A DNA stretch of 64,000 nucleotides. Origin: an uncultured Candidatus Saccharibacteria bacterium (GTDB lineage: Bacteria > Patescibacteriota > Dojkabacteria > CAZCSM01). Numbering within the stretch: position 1 is the first letter of the stretch; the number at the start of each line of letters is the position of its first letter. A program made the position numbers. Location: assembly GCA_964501355.1 (NCBI GenBank), contig CAZCSM010000008.1:761-64760 (forward strand). The letters are read 5' to 3'. Positions 30,001 to 45,000 of this stretch are shown here, in pieces.

Positions 30001-33000
30001 CTGTGCCTTGTCAGGTTGTGGAATGGATTTAACCGCAACAGTAGTCTACACACAATACAAACTAACAGGAACAATCGAATTTGATTATGCAAAATATATC
30101 AAAAACGAGCCTCAAGATTATGTTGAATATGTAATCGGGAAGAAAAAAAGAACCGAATTATTAACTTATATCAATAATTATTTCTACTTATAAAATGAAA
30201 AACTACTTAATTCTAAATCGCTTGTATAAATTCATCAGGGAAATAAATGAAAAAACATTTGTTGGATTGATTGAAGGTGTAAGAGATGAAAAAGAAGCAC
30301 TCAACAGAGCAAAAGCAAAATTCAAACTTGGAAAGGCTGAACAGCTTATCGCAGAGGAGTGCTATATACAAGTATAACAGGTTAAGGGCGGAGGTCAAAA
30401 GATTCCGCCCTTGCGAGAACTATAAAATATAAATATATTAAATATTAATATGGATTACATTAAATACCCAATAGCAAAAACATTAATTGAATGTATTGAA
30501 CACTTAGAAAAAGGCGGTGAACTATGGCAGGAGTTAAGTACAACTCCCGAAGATGGCGAACTTGCTCAAATTGAAAATTATGACGAACTAATGGATTTGG
30601 TTGATTATGAGGAAGATGTTGAAGACTGGCAAATCCATTTAGTAGATTAATTTTCATAACCTTTGAGGGTTGGAAGGTTAAACCCTCAAAATTTGAGCAG
30701 TTGAAACTTACTTTCTTTATCTCTAGCCGAAATAAGAAAGTAAGCAAAGAAAGTTGGCTTTATTTCTTCTACACTTTATGATAGATTATTTGTAACCTTA
30801 CTTTGCTAGGAATACGAGAATGAAAAAGTCTCAACATATTGGTGAGATCATACAAGAGTTAAGAAAAAAGAAAGATATGACACAAGAAGAACTTGCTCAA
30901 AAATCTGGTGTTTCTTATACGACATTGATTAAGATCGAAAGAGGTAGTGTTCAAAACCCAACGGTTAAAACTATCAAGCGGATAGCTGATGCATTAGATG
31001 CATCAGTGGATTTGTTGTTAGGCAAGATTAATTTAGATAACAACCCAACCCATAAAAATGAACAATAACGACTATCAAAATGAAATTTTAAAACTAAAAA
31101 AACAAGTTGAGCGACTCAAAAAGTCTGTTAAGAAACAAAAGTATGGACTTGTATGGATGGATGTTCCAGAGGCATTTGAAGATGACGTTGAAAACAAGTT
31201 GCCGATACTTAAGGAAGTACCTGAATTAGCGATAAAAAACGATGACGGAAAACCTACTCATATTTTGATTGAAGGCGATAACTATCATGCCCTTACTTGT
31301 TTAAATTACACACACAAAGGTAAGATAGACGTAATATACATTGATCCTCCTTATAATACTGGCTCAGATGGATTCCGATACAAAGATAAGAGAGTCTTGG
31401 ATAAATATCCTGATGGTACAGAAGTGCCGAAAGATCAGCCATTACGACATAGTTATTGGTTATCATTTATGGCAAAAAGACTTGAATTGGCAAAGGGATT
31501 ATTAAAAAAAGATGGTTTAATTGCAATTTCTATTGATGATAATGAGTTCGCACAATTAAAGTTTTTGTGTGATGATATTTTAGGCGAAAATAATAGACTT
31601 TCGACACATCATATTAAAGTAAGATACGATAATAAAAGTCTAAATGAAGATAATGATTGGCAACCTGTAATGGAATATCTATTAATTTATGCTAGAGATA
31701 AGTCTGTATTCAAAGCCAACAAACCATCAGAAGATTATAATCTTGAGAAATTTAAATATAAAATTAATGAACTCAACAAGGGGCATGAGGTTCATATTGG
31801 AGGAAAGAAAGTAACAATATTCAAGGATGGTGAATGGGAAATATTGGAGGAGTCTGAGGGAAAAGTCGGACTTTTAAAGGAAACATGGGCATCGGGAAGT
31901 TTGGTAAGGCAAAGCGGAACTGCAGCTGAGTTTCTTGCTAAATATTTGATTAAAAGAAAAGATGAAGATGGTCTGAATGTCCTCTATAAGATAGATAACA
32001 TGGGTGAGGATGGTTTGGGATATAGATATGTTACTGGTCCACGTAAAGCTAATGCGATAAGGGGAAAATATTATTCTGGAGTTCCTCTCGAACGTTTATC
32101 TGAACTGGAAAATGATGGGGGATCATTAAAATATCGACCAATTTCTAATTTTTACGATTTCAGTGGTGATTTCGGAAATATTCGACACGAAGGAGGTGTT
32201 TCTTTTAATAGTGGAAAAAAGCCTATCAAAATGCTTAAAGAGATTATTAACTACCACCCCAACACACAAGCAACAGTATTAGATTTTTTTGCAGGTTCAG
32301 GATCAACAGGACATGCTGTTGTTGATTTAAATGATGACGATAAAGGTTCTAGAAAATTCATTCTGATAACAAATAATGAGGGAGGAATAATGAGAGATAT
32401 TTGTTACCCTAGAATAAAGAATGTTGTTAATAATAACTCTATTAAATTTTATTCAACAGCATTTGTCGGTAATAGAAGTATATTGAAAATTAAGGACGAA
32501 GATAAGGTTGAGTTAGCTCACAATGCGGGAGAATTGCTTGCATTATCTGAAAATACTCTAGATTTGATCAATAAAGATGATTGGATACAACTTTATGAGA
32601 ATGACGATAGATATACAGCTATTTATTTCAGGGAAGAAATGACTAACTTTGAGAAATTTAAGAGTTCCGTAAAAAAACTTGATAAACCAGTCTCTATCTA
32701 TGTATTTAGTTGGGGTGATAATGAATTCCCAGATGATTTTGCAGAAATAAAGGATGCTAAGGTAAAAACAATACCCGCACCAATTCTCGAAATTTATAAA
32801 CAAATTTATAACTTGAATACGAAATAACTATGGCACAATTCAATTTATTAGAATTTCAAAAATCTGCAGTAGAAGAACTCCTAACTTCACTTACAACGAT
32901 ATGGGGAACCCCTAAAAAACAACTTCCTTTAGTCTTCAAATCCCCTACAGGAAGTGGAAAGACTTTTATGATGGCACATTTTATCAAAGGATTGAATCAT

Positions 33001-42000: not shown

Positions 42001-45000
42001 TGCAAATTAAAAGGAAGCAATTTAAAATACTGATCATTTCAGATGGTTTAGCAACGTTCCTAGCTAAACTTACTGGATTTGATGGGAAGAAAGAAGGCAA
42101 AAGAGCAATGGGTTTTGCAATATTTCCGTGTTTTATCATACTTAGAAACTTAACACACCCGATGACTGAACAATGGATAAACCATGAAAGCATTCATGTC
42201 AGACAGTTTATTGAATCATTAGGTTTATTCTGGTTTTACTCTAAAGCTGAGTATTTCTACTTTCGAGTATTTAAAAAGTATTCCCACTTAGAGGCTTACC
42301 GAAATGAGTCAATTGAACAAGAAGCTTATCTTAATCAGCACAATTTCAATTACCTTAACCAAAGACCAAGTTTTAACACAATTAGATATATGAAGAACAA
42401 AACCGATTTTTATACCGATAGCGATTATAGAGTAATAATAGGAAATGAAACTAAACAGTAACTGGGAAACAAAAACTTATAAATATTCCGCATTTTCTTT
42501 AATTAATGAGAATGAGTTTGTTTTTGATGGAAATGGATTTGAGATTGATGGTGATGATAAAGTTGTACATCTATTAACTATACACGATTGTAGAAACTGT
42601 ACTGTTAAAAACATCAATTTCATAAACGGTAATACAGAAGCTCTAAAACACATTCAGAGGAAAGAGGTACAATATCGTAACGAGAAATGTAGCATATTCG
42701 AAATAATTGATGGTGGAGCCGTAGTTATCACAGGAAGATCCTCTGTGAAGTTTGAAAACTGTAGATTCTTGAGTAATAAATCAATTATGTGCGGAGGTGC
42801 TGTTTCAAATCAATCAGATGGAATAGTTTCCTTTCAAGATTGCTACTTTGAGAATAATATTGCAGGTCATACTGGTTCAGCAATAGACAATCTGACAAGA
42901 AATTCTAAAGTTGTAGTAAATAAATGCGAATTTAATAATAACAATAGCAATCTATGGCATAAATTCGGTTTTCCTCATGGACAAATTTCAATATTTCCAC
43001 AAACTGAGGCAGAAATTAAAAACTCAAGATTTAAACTTGGCTCAATACCGTTTGATTACTACAAAACATCTAAAGTAACTTTTACGTCTAATGTTTATAA
43101 TGATTACTCCGATTGGAACGAGAAAATCCCGACAATAAGAGATACCTCTATCATTAAAGATAATATCAAGATGTTAAGAAAAATGTGGTGGGTTGTAAGT
43201 AAAACATTTGGAAAGGTTTATTATAAAGTAAATCCCTAGTTTCTTTGTTTGATGTTCTGAATTACCGTAATGATCGTTACCCACAATATCTGAAACGGTA
43301 ACAGAAACATACTCATCAAACAGCCATAATTCCTAAACCCCGAATTATAATAAATACTAGCCCCTTTTCCCTTTTTGTAAATCATAACAATCGCCCTAAC
43401 AACTTAAATCTAAAGTTGGAAGCTCAAATAAGAACTTCCACTTATACTCAAACTCCTTAAAACATGAGATAATCGTATCAATAAAGGGAAGGAGTCGTTC
43501 GTACATAGTACGATCGCCCCGACTCTGAGCTTTTTGCTTTTTGAGGAATATCTGCTTTTGACATTTCGTCGCTAGTTTCCCGTAAACGGGATTTACTCAA
43601 CAACAGTTCACCTTCGGTTCACTGTGTTATCGTAATTCCGCACAGGGATTTACTCAACAACAATTCACCTTCGGTTCACTGTGTTATCGTAATCAAGTCT
43701 AGTCACCCCGACTCTGAGCTTTTTTATATACCTCTCATGAAATCAAAGAAGAGATGCTTATGCATCTCTTCTTGAATTTAGTCCCAACTGATTAGGATGG
43801 ATGTTACTTCCCCACCGCATTATGCAGCACCTTCGACAGTTCTTTTAATTCATCAAACTTGTATATTGAAATTGGCATAACCGGTTTTCCCTTACTCGTT
43901 ATTTTATCAACCATATGATAAAATTATTCATATGAAATTTCTAAAAAACGTACCAAAAAATGTAATAAAGTTTTATGTCTGGAAACTCATTTCCGGTTTT
44001 TCTTTTATATATTCACTGCAAGCCATCTATTTATTGACAAAAGGTATTACTGCAGCAGAACTAGCAATCTTTGCAAGTATAACGGCTATTACGACTACAA
44101 TTACTGAAATTCCCACAGGATATATAGCAGACAAATTCTCAAGAAAACTTTCAATCTCTCTAGGTTTTTTCATACAGGGTATAGCTTACATAGTCATTAT
44201 CTTATCAAATAATCTTTTCACTTTAATCCCAATTGGAATCCTTCTGGGTCTGGGGAATTCGTTACTGAGCGGATCTGTAGAATCACTTTTATATGATTTA
44301 TTGAAAAGTTCCAATGACGAGAAGTCATATTTGAAAATCAATTCTAGAGGTTCTGCTATTGAGACAATAACTGGAGTTATTGCAACTTTTCTTGGTCCAA
44401 TCATATATGTCATTAACCATGAATCACCATTTATCTTAACGGGTGTAGTTTTATTAATTCTAAGTTTATTTGTTTATACAATAGATGAAGCAAAATCTGA
44501 TGCAGAGGAAGTTGAAAGAAATCTGTCTGCTCTTGATGGAATTAAGAACATCCTTAAAAACAAAGCTGTGTTAATAATCACACTGGCCGATACAATTTTA
44601 CTTGTAATGGTAAATTTGTTTTATCAAGTGTTAAACTTCCCGAAGTTAGAACGTTTGGGATTTCCCATAGAGTTTCTAGGTTCGTTAGATGTTCTTAATC
44701 TTGTGTTAATGACATTAATGCTGTTAATTGTTTCAAAACTTGTTTTGAAACAATTAAAAAACACCTTTTTTATATATTCGATTGCAACAATAGTTATCTT
44801 CTCTTTATATTACTTTACATCAAATCTGATCGGTGCAATAGTATTTGGTATTTTATTTGATGTTGTTTGGTCAGCAAGAAAGCAAGTAATGCCAACAATC
44901 ACAAACGAATATTTTTCTTCAAAGAATAGAGCGACTTCAATTTCAAGTATGTCTTTTCTCAGTAACCTCGGAGCATCAATACTTGTTCCCGTCACATTAC

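What the first reader, a model, noticed from the sequence alone, without database searches (positions are those of the whole stretch)
30820..43239. Eleven co-directional, tightly packed genes: Type III R-M followed by seven further predicted nuclease, ATPase, phosphatase and NTase genes (candidate novel composite defense system)
From 30820 to 43239 every gene is on the + strand with gaps of 30 bp or less, or overlaps. The order is XRE controller, Mod (DPPY before FxGxG), Res (helicase plus PD..DxK), an ABC/SMC-like ATPase whose start ATG overlaps the Res stop codon (ATGA at 35199-35202), an Mrr-like wHTH plus PD-(D/E)xK protein, an HCX5R phosphatase, a DUF2130-like protein, a DUF2779-like Cas4/RecB-like nuclease with a Cys cluster, an NTase-like protein, an HExxH protein and a beta-helix protein. 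The order and packing look operon-like and go beyond a canonical Type III system. Coupling of the ATPase to res suggests the ATPase, the Mrr-like nuclease and the phosphatase work with or back up the R-M system, as in BREX-, DISARM- or Lamassu-type add-ons.
Basis: partly seen in the sequence, partly recalled or inferred. Interest (0 to 1): 0.9.

Follow-up and report, generated by a model that had tools for sequence, protein, structure and literature searches.

The report
Mosaic restriction-centred defence island on ICE
The eleven tightly packed genes are real, but they are a patchwork of separately mobile anti-invader modules (a Type III restriction system plus accessory nucleases, an ATPase and a phosphatase) carried as cargo of a conjugative element, not one new eleven-gene system.

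Summary
Observation confirmed. There are eleven + strand ORFs at 30820-43239, with gaps of -17 to +31 bp. Nearly all the domain calls hold.

Interpretation partly supported. The array is the right-end cargo of a ~39.7 kb element integrated at tRNA-Pro. Comparison with about 210 related loci shows separable modules:
- a C-protein/Type III Mod-Res system;
- an ABC ATPase that is a full-length match to PADLOC's untested single-gene candidate PDC-S46, with no fixed partner in 76 loci;
- a HARE-winged-helix + Hjc-like PD-(D/E)xK nuclease;
- a DSP phosphatase-DUF2779 pair, here split by a DUF2130 gene;
- an unrelated NTase/HExxH/beta-helix cassette, found elsewhere without any R-M genes.

A relative with 97-99% identical Res, ATPase and nuclease proteins has swapped both variable cassettes exactly at gene boundaries.

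The strongest new signal concerns the nuclease. Its family sits as the last gene of co-directional R-M operons of Types I, II and III. R-M-like ORFs make up 67 of 170 ORFs at the three positions upstream, 0 of 152 at the three downstream, and 3 of 239 at six or more ORFs away.

There are no BREX, DISARM or Lamassu components. This is an R-M operon extended by accessory candidates, not a single composite system.

The parts
3992..4010 (+). attL: 19-bp core at the 3' end of tRNA-Pro (3936-4012); left end of the integrated element
   Evidence: Exact repeat CAAGTCTAGTCACCCCGAC occurs twice in the window, 0 expected by chance. tRNA-Pro found.
3997..5568 (-). large serine recombinase at the left end of the element
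   Evidence: Resolvase + Recombinase + Zn_ribbon_recom.
7956..25105 (+). conjugation module: DUF11 surface protein, TrbL/VirB6-like, TraG/VirB4-like ATPase, coupling-protein-like ATPase, Replic_Relax
   Evidence: Pfam; ORF run.
30704..30807 (+). candidate promoter (TTGGCT-17-TATGAT, 30754-30782) flanked by CTTACTTT/AAAGTAAG repeats; possible C-protein operators
   Evidence: Not conserved in the relative L086, where this stretch is replaced by a tRNA-Gln, so this is tentative.
30820..31068 (+). g1: XRE/HTH_3 controller (C-protein-like), overlaps mod by 11 bp
   Evidence: HTH_3 8.7e-18. PADLOC 'Control_protein' models down to 4.7e-8.
31058..32827 (+). g2: Type III Mod, beta-class N6-adenine methyltransferase
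   Evidence: PADLOC MTase_III 1.6e-64. Matches solved Type III Mods: Mbo45V 3.6e-43, EcoP15I Mod 1.3e-34. DPPY precedes FxGxG. Only 72% identical to the relative L086, whereas Res is 97%.
32830..35202 (+). g3: Type III Res, SF2 helicase plus C-terminal PD...DxK nuclease; divergent
   Evidence: ResIII 1.4e-21. PADLOC REase_III 1.1e-15. Motifs. No sequence match in the PDB.
35199..37367 (+). g4: ABC/SMC-like ATPase = PADLOC single-gene candidate PDC-S46; start overlaps the res stop
   Evidence: PDC-S46 1.6e-262 over residues 1-721 of a 719-position model. phrog_38705 1.9e-187. More than 574 relatives across many phyla. No fixed neighbour.
37374..38108 (+). g5: HARE-HTH winged helix + Hjc/I-Ssp6803I-like PD-(D/E)xK nuclease; a family that ends R-M operons
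38110..38595 (+). g6: Cys-based dual-specificity-type phosphatase (HCX5R)
   Evidence: DSPc 4.1e-8. PDB DSP/PTP hits down to 3e-5. 173 homologues. Contexts: next to DUF2779 (L090, L205) or R-M genes (L206, L207, L208).
38624..39874 (+). g7: DUF2130 (coiled coil + PD-(D/E)xK superfamily), inserted between DSP and DUF2779
   Evidence: DUF2130 2.5e-85. PD-(D/E)xK assignment from PMC3424549. Found as HsdR-DUF2130-HARE, XRE-Mod-Res-DUF2130 (L181) and OLD-DUF2130.
39906..41333 (+). g8: Cas4-like PD-(D/E)xK N-terminal half with a Cys cluster + DUF2779 (RNase H-like 3'-5' exonuclease clade)
   Evidence: DUF2779 3.1e-40. Weak Cas4 7.7e-5. Domain assignment from PMC3985635. Directly follows DSP in L090 and L205. 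Present on 30 plasmids in defence-like contexts.
41330..42010 (+). g9: Pol-beta-fold nucleotidyltransferase (LnuA/ANT(2'')/MenT-like); first gene of a separate cassette
42000..42461 (+). g10: small HExxH protein (metalloprotease-like)
   Evidence: phrog_15610 'protease' 2.4e-14. HESIH motif. 89% identical copy follows the g9 homologue in L213.
42445..43239 (+). g11: GGA[V/I]-repeat protein, probable beta-helix
   Evidence: No significant family or PDB hit. Repeats. Follows the g9 homologue in L211-L213.
43694..43712 (+). attR: second copy of the tRNA-Pro 3' end; right end of the element. A partial extra copy lies at 43514-43535 and a 49-nt x2 tandem at 43588-43693

Best explanation
The region 30820-43239 is a mosaic defence island. 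It is carried as the distal cargo of a ~39.7 kb conjugative element (3992-43712) that uses a serine recombinase and is integrated into tRNA-Pro. It consists of separately mobile modules that are probably co-transcribed.

1. A small HTH controller (g1) and a Type III R-M system (g2 Mod, g3 Res). By analogy with characterised Type III enzymes, Mod hemimethylates an asymmetric site and the Mod-Res complex cuts unmethylated incoming DNA in an ATP-dependent way. The controller would delay res expression after transfer into a new host. These steps are inferred.

2. A stand-alone ABC ATPase (g4 = PDC-S46) embedded between res and the terminal nuclease and translationally coupled to res. Its defence role is a published prediction only.

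3. A HARE-winged-helix/Hjc-like PD-(D/E)xK nuclease (g5). This family is the habitual last gene of R-M operons of Types I, II and III. It most likely acts as a second nuclease that does not depend on the partner's recognition sequence, for example a modification-discriminating (Type IV-like) or structure-specific one. This is inferred.

4. A DSP phosphatase-DUF2779 (Cas4-like nuclease + 3'-5' exonuclease) pair (g6, g8) with a DUF2130 nuclease-superfamily gene (g7) inserted. These are predicted to process or degrade DNA ends. This is inferred.

5. An unrelated NTase-HExxH-beta-helix cassette (g9-g11) with no defence association.

The layers act in parallel rather than as one obligate machine.
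For: Element bounds: an exact 19-bp tRNA-Pro repeat at both ends, a serine recombinase and conjugation genes.

Type III R-M.

Modularity:
- 80 ATPase loci contain no g5 or g6. Their immediate neighbours span 116 Pfam families.
- Most of 80 nuclease loci lack every other member.
- The relative L086 (Res 97%, ATPase 99%, nuclease 98%, DUF2779 93% identical) has PNPOx in place of DSP+DUF2130. It has a PHP-ABC ATPase in place of g9-g11. The breakpoints fall at gene boundaries 38108/39905 and 41308.
- In that relative the block abuts a tRNA-Gln rather than conjugation genes.
- g9-g11 homologues occur together beside housekeeping genes or an IS3 transposase.

Polar R-M association of the nuclease:
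- 44 of 53 loci with at least 2 kb of upstream sequence have an R-M gene among the three upstream ORFs.
- R-M-like ORFs: 67/170 upstream (66 on the same strand), 0/152 downstream, 3/239 far away. The median gap to the upstream ORF is about 4-5 bp.
- The partner types were identified by Pfam.

ATPase embedding in Type I R-M operons, with start-codon overlaps: L036, L067, L068. This matches how PDC candidates were defined (bioRxiv 10.1101/2024.01.29.577857).

DSP-DUF2779 adjacency in independent contexts: L090 and L205.
Against: - No function was tested. Defence activity of PDC-S46, the HARE nuclease, DSP, DUF2130 and DUF2779 is unproven by anyone, as far as the searched literature shows.
- Tight packing and the ATGA coupling would also fit functional cooperation.
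- The arrangement 'Type III Mod-Res, then an ABC ATPase, then DSP' recurs with a non-homologous ATPase in L208. That hints at more than chance co-location.
- Neighbour annotation used homology to ten Pfam-annotated representatives. R-M counts are therefore lower bounds, and the loci are not phylogenetically independent samples.
- The candidate C-boxes are not conserved in the close relative.
Confidence: 0.7

Rival explanations
1. Cooperative core. Type III Mod-Res, the PDC-S46 ATPase, the HARE nuclease and possibly DSP/DUF2779 form a functionally coupled unit. The accessory proteins would be kept silent by, or recruited to, the R-M complex and fire when restriction is blocked or bypassed, in the way PrrC behaves within EcoprrI.
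For: - ATGA coupling of res and the ATPase, with gaps of 1-6 bp through g6.
- The HARE nuclease is operon-terminal after R-M genes in 44 of 53 loci, always on the same strand.
- The ATPase is embedded in Type I operons with overlapping starts.
- Mod-Res-ATPase arrays in L016 and L049.
- Mod-Res-PHP-ATPase-DSP in L208.
- The PrrC precedent is discussed in bioRxiv 10.1101/2024.01.29.577857.
Against: - The nuclease is 58-98% identical across partners of unrelated R-M types and specificities. That argues against a specific protein-protein interface with each partner.
- The ATPase occurs mostly without R-M genes: about 18 of 76 loci have one within three ORFs.
- The nuclease also occurs among housekeeping-type genes, with none of the other ten cluster genes found nearby, in L093-L098.
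Confidence: 0.2
2. One reading: all eleven genes are one novel composite defence system comparable to BREX, DISARM or Lamassu.
For: Uninterrupted co-directional packing. The same eleven-gene order is seen on Logan contigs of the same element.
Against: - The only other places with the full order are copies of the same element (99.45% DNA identity).
- The nearest distinct relative lacks five of the eleven genes.
- g9-g11 occur without R-M genes elsewhere.
- No BREX, DISARM or Lamassu HMM hits.
Confidence: 0.04
3. Not defence. g4-g8 are DNA-processing, recombination or repair genes serving the conjugative element or the host: an Hjc-like resolvase, an RmuC-like DUF2130, and a Cas4-like/exonuclease end processor.
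For: - The nuclease domain resembles Holliday-junction resolvases.
- Some database sources name homologues 'Holliday junction resolvase'.
- The nuclease occurs among housekeeping-type genes in L093-L098.
- The cluster sits on a conjugative element.
Against: - Strong, polar linkage to R-M operons irrespective of any mobile-element context.
- DSP, DUF2130 and DUF2779 neighbours are OLD nucleases, SMODS, NERD, PIN, SLATT, GmrSD, FokI/XhoI-type enzymes and WYL regulators.
- In L086 the block lies outside any conjugation module.
Confidence: 0.08

Closest known systems
Type III restriction-modification systems (EcoP15I, Mbo45V) with a C-protein controller
   Same: Mod is a beta-class methyltransferase matching solved Type III Mods. 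Res has SF2 helicase motifs and a C-terminal PD...DxK. The gene order is mod then res, preceded by a small HTH_3 gene.
   Different: Res is short (790 aa) and has no sequence-level match to solved Res proteins. Its PADLOC REase_III score is weak. The operon continues into eight further genes.
PADLOC phage defence candidate PDC-S46 (guilt-by-embedding set, bioRxiv 10.1101/2024.01.29.577857)
   Same: g4 matches the model end to end (E 1.6e-262). Relatives are embedded in Type I R-M operons, which is how PDC candidates were defined.
   Different: Here it follows a Type III res and precedes a HARE nuclease. The candidate has never been tested, so 'defence' remains a prediction.
HARE-HTH fused to restriction-endonuclease-fold domains (Aravind & Iyer 2012, as cited in PMC10853773 and PMC12839542)
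   Same: N-terminal HARE-HTH plus a C-terminal PD-(D/E)xK domain. It is located immediately downstream of DNA-modification or restriction genes and has been proposed to discriminate modified DNA.
   Different: This particular 244-aa family is unusually conserved (58-98% identity) and, judging from the source names of several homologues, is found largely in Patescibacteria-like MAGs. Its strictly operon-terminal position after Type I, II and III systems is quantified here. I did not find that described in the papers I could read.
Mrr / Type IV modification-dependent nucleases next to R-M loci
   Same: Winged-helix reader plus PD-(D/E)xK nuclease architecture, with an R-M-adjacent location. Mrr_cat proteins also neighbour PDC-S46 homologues in 5 of 76 loci.
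   Different: No Mrr_cat match. The nuclease domain is closest to I-Ssp6803I and Hjc. Dependence on modification is untested.
PrrC/RloC-type ABC-ATPase modules embedded in Type I R-M systems
   Same: An ABC ATPase gene co-oriented with, and coupled to, R-M genes.
   Different: No anticodon-nuclease domain was detected. The function of the C-terminal ~220 aa of g4 is unknown. Most homologues are not near R-M genes.
BREX / DISARM / Lamassu
   Same: Multi-gene loci that combine a methyltransferase, helicase or ATPase, and a phosphatase or nuclease.
   Different: No PADLOC hit to any BREX, DISARM or Lamassu component at E <= 0.01 for the ten proteins scanned, which did not include g10. The phosphatase is a Cys-based DSP fold, not a PglZ alkaline-phosphatase fold.

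Membership tests
Type III R-M | Mod is a beta-class N6-adenine methyltransferase (motif IV DPPY before motif I FxGxG, with a central recognition domain) | tested here: met
   DPPY at aa 96-99 and FAGSG at aa 411-415. 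MTase_III 1.6e-64. EcoP15I Mod 1.3e-34 and Mbo45V 3.6e-43.
Type III R-M | Res has SF2 helicase motifs plus a C-terminal PD-(D/E)xK nuclease | tested here: met
   GSGKT, DESH, SAT, QTIGR and PD(709)...DTK(726). ResIII 1.4e-21. However, the family-specific REase_III score is only 1.1e-15 and there is no PDB sequence hit.
Type III R-M | mod immediately upstream of res on the same strand | tested here: met
   A 2-bp gap between 32827 and 32830.
Type III R-M | ATP-dependent cleavage needing two inversely oriented unmethylated sites; hemimethylation of an asymmetric site | not testable with these tools
   Biochemical property.
C-protein-controlled R-M | Small HTH controller gene upstream of, or overlapping, the R-M genes | tested here: met
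   82-aa HTH_3 protein overlapping mod by 11 bp. PADLOC Control_protein hits down to 4.7e-8.
C-protein-controlled R-M | Palindromic C-box operators at the controller's own promoter | tested here: inconclusive
   CTTACTTT/AAAGTAAG repeats flank a promoter-like site at 30704-30807. The stretch is absent from the close relative L086, where a tRNA-Gln abuts the gene.
PADLOC PDC-S46 | Full-length match to the PDC-S46 HMM | tested here: met
   E 1.6e-262, residues 1-721 against model positions 1-718 of 719.
PADLOC PDC-S46 | Demonstrated anti-phage activity | not testable with these tools
   The source paper lists the PDCs as untested candidates.
BREX | PglZ alkaline-phosphatase-fold protein, BrxC/PglY ATPase and PglX methyltransferase | tested here: not met
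   No BREX model hit at E <= 0.01. The phosphatase is DSP fold.
DISARM | DrmA helicase, DrmB (DUF1998) and DrmC (PLD) | tested here: not met
   No DISARM model hit. No DUF1998 or PLD domain in Pfam.
Lamassu | LmuB SMC-like ATPase paired with an LmuA effector | tested here: not met
   No Lmu model hit. The only hits for g4 are PDC-S46 and a weak mad8 match.
Mrr-family Type IV nuclease | Mrr_cat catalytic domain | tested here: not met
HARE-HTH-REase fusion proteins | N-terminal HARE-HTH and C-terminal PD-(D/E)xK with intact catalytic residues | tested here: met
   HARE-HTH 7e-17. Invariant E107, D131, Q144-x-K146 in 24 homologues. Fold confirmed.
Cas4 | RecB-like nuclease with a 4-Cys Fe-S cluster, encoded in a CRISPR-cas locus | tested here: inconclusive
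   Weak Cas4 HMM hit at 7.7e-5 and a C-x6-C-x-C-x3-C cluster. No other PADLOC Cas-family hit among the ten proteins scanned. No search for CRISPR repeat arrays was run.
Cys-based PTP/DSP phosphatases | HCX5R(S/T) P-loop in a DSP fold | tested here: met
   HCDQGLSRS at aa 102-110. DSPc 33.5 bits, equal to its cut-off. PDB DSP hits. The substrate is unknown.
Pol-beta-superfamily nucleotidyltransferases (LnuA / ANT(2'') / MenT group) | hG[GS]...DxD...E signature and the NTase fold | tested here: met

The most novel reading that the evidence does not exclude
The 244-aa HARE-winged-helix/Hjc-like nuclease, and perhaps the DSP-DUF2779 pair, may be a previously unrecognised class of R-M-dependent accessory effector. 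It would be a conserved 'second nuclease' that plugs onto Type I, II and III restriction operons regardless of their specificity and is functionally coupled to them. For example, it might finish off DNA nicked or translocated by the R-M motor, or fire when the R-M complex is inhibited. PDC-S46 and DUF2130 would then be genes embedded inside that extended operon.
Probability: 0.2. Interest if true: 0.7.

Novelty: new variant of a known kind. Interest (0 to 1): 0.42.

Why it matters
The locus is a clear example of how conjugative elements bundle layered defences, and of how cassettes are exchanged at gene boundaries between near-identical islands.

It gives a natural Type III context for an untested PADLOC candidate (PDC-S46).

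It flags uncatalogued candidates with testable genetics:
- A highly conserved HARE-HTH nuclease family whose position is strictly operon-terminal after R-M systems of three types.
- A DSP phosphatase-DUF2779 nuclease pair.

If the terminal nuclease proves to be functionally tied to restriction, it would add a common, overlooked component to R-M biology. By the source names of several homologues, this would apply especially to Patescibacteria-like organisms.

If not, the region is an ordinary defence island.

Tried and rejected
- Megablast of the whole region against plasmids found nothing. tblastn of g5, g9 and g11 against plasmids found nothing. IMG/VR scans for g5 and g8 found nothing.
- My first reading, that the HARE nuclease is mostly solitary, was wrong. 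The window's own Mod and Res are too divergent to detect the Type I and II partners. Clustering the neighbours and annotating representatives with Pfam reversed that conclusion.
- Promoter and terminator scans were uninformative: 51 found against 59 expected, and 4 against 5.5.
- PDB sequence searches for Res, the ATPase, g9 and g11 gave nothing useful.
- Literature searches for PDC-S46, and for DSP phosphatases in defence islands, gave no papers. Aravind & Iyer 2012 is not held in the library. The PADLOC preprint's supplements did not yield a PDC-S46 entry in the stored text.
- I looked for a repeat of the tRNA-Gln end in L086 to bound the island there and found none within 3 mismatches.

Full report
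**1.

Eleven + strand ORFs run from 30820 to 43239. The intergenic distances are -11, 2, -4, 6, 1, 28, 31, -4, -11 and -17 bp. The ninth gene most likely starts at the ATG at 41330, overlapping the g8 stop, as independent gene calls on the same element place it. The res stop and the ATPase start share ATGA at 35199-35202.

- DPPY before FxGxG in Mod.
- GSGKT, DESH and PD...DTK in Res.
- Walker A, signature and Walker B motifs in the ATPase.
- HCX5R in the phosphatase.
- A Cys cluster in g8.
- HExxH in g10.

Tight co-directional packing is not special in this window. The + strand run begins at 29454, and the conjugation genes form a similar run. Promoter- and terminator-like sites are at chance level.

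**2. Context: cargo of an integrated conjugative element**

tRNA-Cys, tRNA-Leu and tRNA-Pro lie at 3603-4012. The last 19 bp of tRNA-Pro (3992-4010) recur exactly at 43694-43712, with none expected by chance. Between these copies lie:
- a large serine recombinase (3997-5568, - strand);
- a conjugation module (7956-25105): TrbL/VirB6-like, VirB4/TraG-like, coupling-protein-like and Replic_Relax genes;
- resistance-like cargo on the - strand: beta-lactamase fold, MFS and ABC-F-like genes;
- a DUF2958 gene;
- the eleven-gene array.

The array is therefore the right-end cargo of a ~39.7 kb element. Beyond attR lie an MFS gene and Obg.

**3. What each gene is**

- **g1-g3: a controller plus a Type III R-M system.** Mod matches PADLOC MTase_III at 1.6e-64. 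It also matches solved Type III Mods: Mbo45V 3.6e-43 and EcoP15I Mod 1.3e-34. Res has the helicase and nuclease motifs but is divergent: REase_III 1.1e-15 and no PDB sequence match.
- **g4: a full-length match to PADLOC's single-gene candidate PDC-S46** (E 1.6e-262). The PDC set was defined by 'guilt-by-embedding' in BREX, DISARM and Type I R-M loci and is explicitly untested (bioRxiv 10.1101/2024.01.29.577857).
- **g6: a Cys-based DSP-fold phosphatase**.
- **g7: DUF2130**, assigned to the PD-(D/E)xK superfamily with unknown function (PMC3424549).
- **g8: a Cas4-like N-terminal half plus DUF2779**, which is placed in the 3'-5' exonuclease clade of RNase H-like proteins (PMC3985635).
- **g10** hits a PHROG annotated 'protease' (2.4e-14).
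- **No BREX, DISARM or Lamassu model** is hit by any of the ten proteins scanned, which did not include g10.

**4. Is it one system? Comparative evidence says no**

*ATPase as pivot.* A scan of species-representative genomes returned at least 574 relatives in many phyla, at 42-65% identity.
- In the best 80 loci, none carries g5 or g6. Only isolated loci carry a Mod, Res, DUF2130 or DUF2779 homologue.
- The flanking ORFs vary in size and strand.
- The 124 immediate neighbours fall into 116 Pfam families. The commonest are Methylase_S (5), Mrr_cat (5), N6_Mtase (4), Resolvase (4) and ResIII (3).
- About 18 of 76 loci have an R-M gene within three ORFs. These include true embedding in Type I operons with overlapping start codons (L036, L067, L068) and Mod-Res-ATPase arrays in L016 and L049.
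- The ATPase is therefore an autonomous module that tends to sit near R-M genes.

*Nuclease as pivot.* There are 748 homologues, nearly all 244-245 aa and 58-98% identical. Several are named by their sources as Patescibacteria lineages. Direct searches with the window's own proteins suggested that most copies are solitary, but this was misleading. Clustering the neighbours and annotating representatives with Pfam showed Type I HsdM, HsdS and HsdR. It also showed Type III-like Mod+Res, fused MTase-S enzymes, D12 methyltransferases and GIY-YIG-helicases. All of these lie upstream on the same strand.
- Of 53 loci with at least 2 kb of upstream sequence, 44 have an R-M gene among the three upstream ORFs.
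- By position, R-M-like ORFs make up 67 of 170 at -1 to -3 (66 co-directional), 0 of 152 at +1 to +3, and 3 of 239 at six or more ORFs away.
- The median gap to the upstream ORF is about 4-5 bp.
- Downstream, an FtsK-gamma protein (7 loci) and a serine recombinase (8 loci) recur.
- This nuclease family is thus the habitual last gene of R-M operons of three types. In the window, the ATPase is in effect embedded between res and this terminal gene.

*The close relative L086-L089.* In this relative Res is 97%, the ATPase 99%, the nuclease 98% and DUF2779 93% identical, while Mod is only 72% identical.
- It has a PNPOx-fold gene in place of DSP+DUF2130.
- It has a PHP-ABC ATPase plus a 96-aa ORF in place of g9-g11.
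- DNA homology breaks exactly at gene boundaries: 30861-38108, 39905-41308, then 43261-43379.
- There the block starts at the 3' end of a tRNA-Gln and is not next to conjugation genes.

*DSP.* There are 173 homologues at 53-96% identity.
- It directly precedes DUF2779 in two independent contexts: L090 (HARE-DSP-DUF2779) and L205 (DSP 68%, DUF2779 71% identical).
- Elsewhere it sits by Type I or Type II R-M genes (L206, L207).
- In L208 it sits in a Mod-Res-PHP-ABC-ATPase-DSP array.

*DUF2130.* It is found in the following arrangements:
- between HsdR and the HARE nuclease in five loci;
- after XRE-Mod-Res in L181 and after HsdR in L200;
- after OLD-family ATPase-nucleases in several IMG/VR contigs and on an Aliarcobacter plasmid.

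*DUF2779.* It occurs on 30 plasmids, next to AAA ATPases, NERD, a metallophosphoesterase, WYL and RmuC.

*g9-g11.* g9 has only 10 homologues.
- In L213, g9-g10-g11 (73%, 89% and 76% identical) lie among housekeeping genes.
- In L211 and L212, g9-g11 follow an IS3 transposase.
- None is next to R-M genes.

**5. Most likely mechanism**

The steps below are inferred unless marked otherwise.
- The island is probably transcribed from a promoter upstream of g1. A candidate lies at 30754-30782, flanked by CTTACTTT/AAAGTAAG repeats. This is tentative, because the stretch is not conserved in L086.
- By analogy with characterised systems, the controller delays res after conjugative entry.
- Mod hemimethylates its site, and Mod-Res cuts unmethylated DNA.
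- The HARE nuclease is highly conserved while its R-M partners differ in type and specificity. It therefore cannot share their sequence recognition. A modification-discriminating (Type IV-like) role, as proposed for HARE-REase fusions (PMC10853773), or a structure-specific role fits best.
- The ATPase is a candidate sensor or effector of unknown trigger.
- DSP with DUF2779, and DUF2130, are predicted to act on nucleic-acid ends.
- What is shown: domain identities, catalytic-residue conservation, gene order, mobility and neighbourhood statistics.
- What is not shown: any activity.

**6. Comparison and novelty**

- The R-M core is a new member of a known family.
- The ATPase is a catalogued candidate.
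- HARE-REase fusions next to modification genes have been described computationally.
- The following were not found in the papers I could read, and g5-g8 gave no significant PADLOC match: the strict operon-terminal polarity of this nuclease family across R-M types, and the DSP-DUF2779 pair.
- The 'single composite system' claim is not supported. A looser claim does have support: an R-M operon extended by recurrent accessory genes that may cooperate with it.
- I rate this a new variant of a known kind, of moderate interest.

Noticed in passing
window 3992-4010 and 43694-43712 (also 43514-43535, 43588-43693): An exact 19-bp repeat of the tRNA-Pro 3' end bounds a ~39.7 kb integrated conjugative element. 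A second partial att-like copy and a 49-nt x2 tandem repeat lie just inside attR, which suggests a scar of an earlier or tandem integration.
   Followed up: partly
window 25144-28825 (- strand): Three cargo genes look resistance-like: a beta-lactamase-fold protein (299 aa), an MFS transporter (402 aa) and an ABC-F-like protein with two ABC_tran domains (524 aa).
   Followed up: no
L099-L178 (metagenome loci): The HARE-nuclease family ends R-M operons of Types I, II and III. It is often followed by an FtsK-gamma-domain protein and a serine recombinase, which suggests that whole R-M + nuclease units ride on small integrative elements.
   Followed up: partly
L086 3398-3468; L086 15553-15580 and 15848-15873: In the 98% relative, the defence block starts exactly at the 3' end of a tRNA-Gln and the controller gene is 5'-truncated. 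Two fragments resembling tRNA 3' ends lie downstream of the block.
   Followed up: partly
L182, L185, L186, L187 (IMG/VR) and L201 (Aliarcobacter butzleri plasmid): DUF2130 genes repeatedly lie next to an OLD-family (AAA_15 + TOPRIM) ATPase-nuclease gene. This may be a two-gene module. DUF2130 itself matched no PADLOC model; the pair was not tested.
   Followed up: no
L086 12686-15061; L208 4311-7004: PHP-domain + ABC-ATPase proteins (791 and 897 aa, distantly related to each other) occupy the accessory slot after Type III-like R-M genes or DUF2779. They are a second kind of ATPase in the same position as PDC-S46.
   Followed up: no
window 41330-43239; L211-L213: The NTase (LnuA/ANT(2'')/MenT-like fold), small HExxH protein and GGA-repeat protein form a rare cassette: only 10 NTase homologues among 5.8 billion proteins. 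It is seen in Nomurabacteria next to an IS3 transposase. Whether it is a toxin module, a resistance gene or something else is open.
   Followed up: partly
window 45125-46075 (- strand): The Obg GTPase is only 316 aa, with no C-terminal extension beyond the GTPase domain. The small size may fit a reduced genome.
   Followed up: no
window 31058-32827 vs L086 3664-5454: Mod is only 72% identical between the two islands, while Res, the ATPase and the nuclease are 97-99% identical. This may reflect a swap of the target-recognition region, and hence a change of specificity; the alignment was not examined by region.
   Followed up: no
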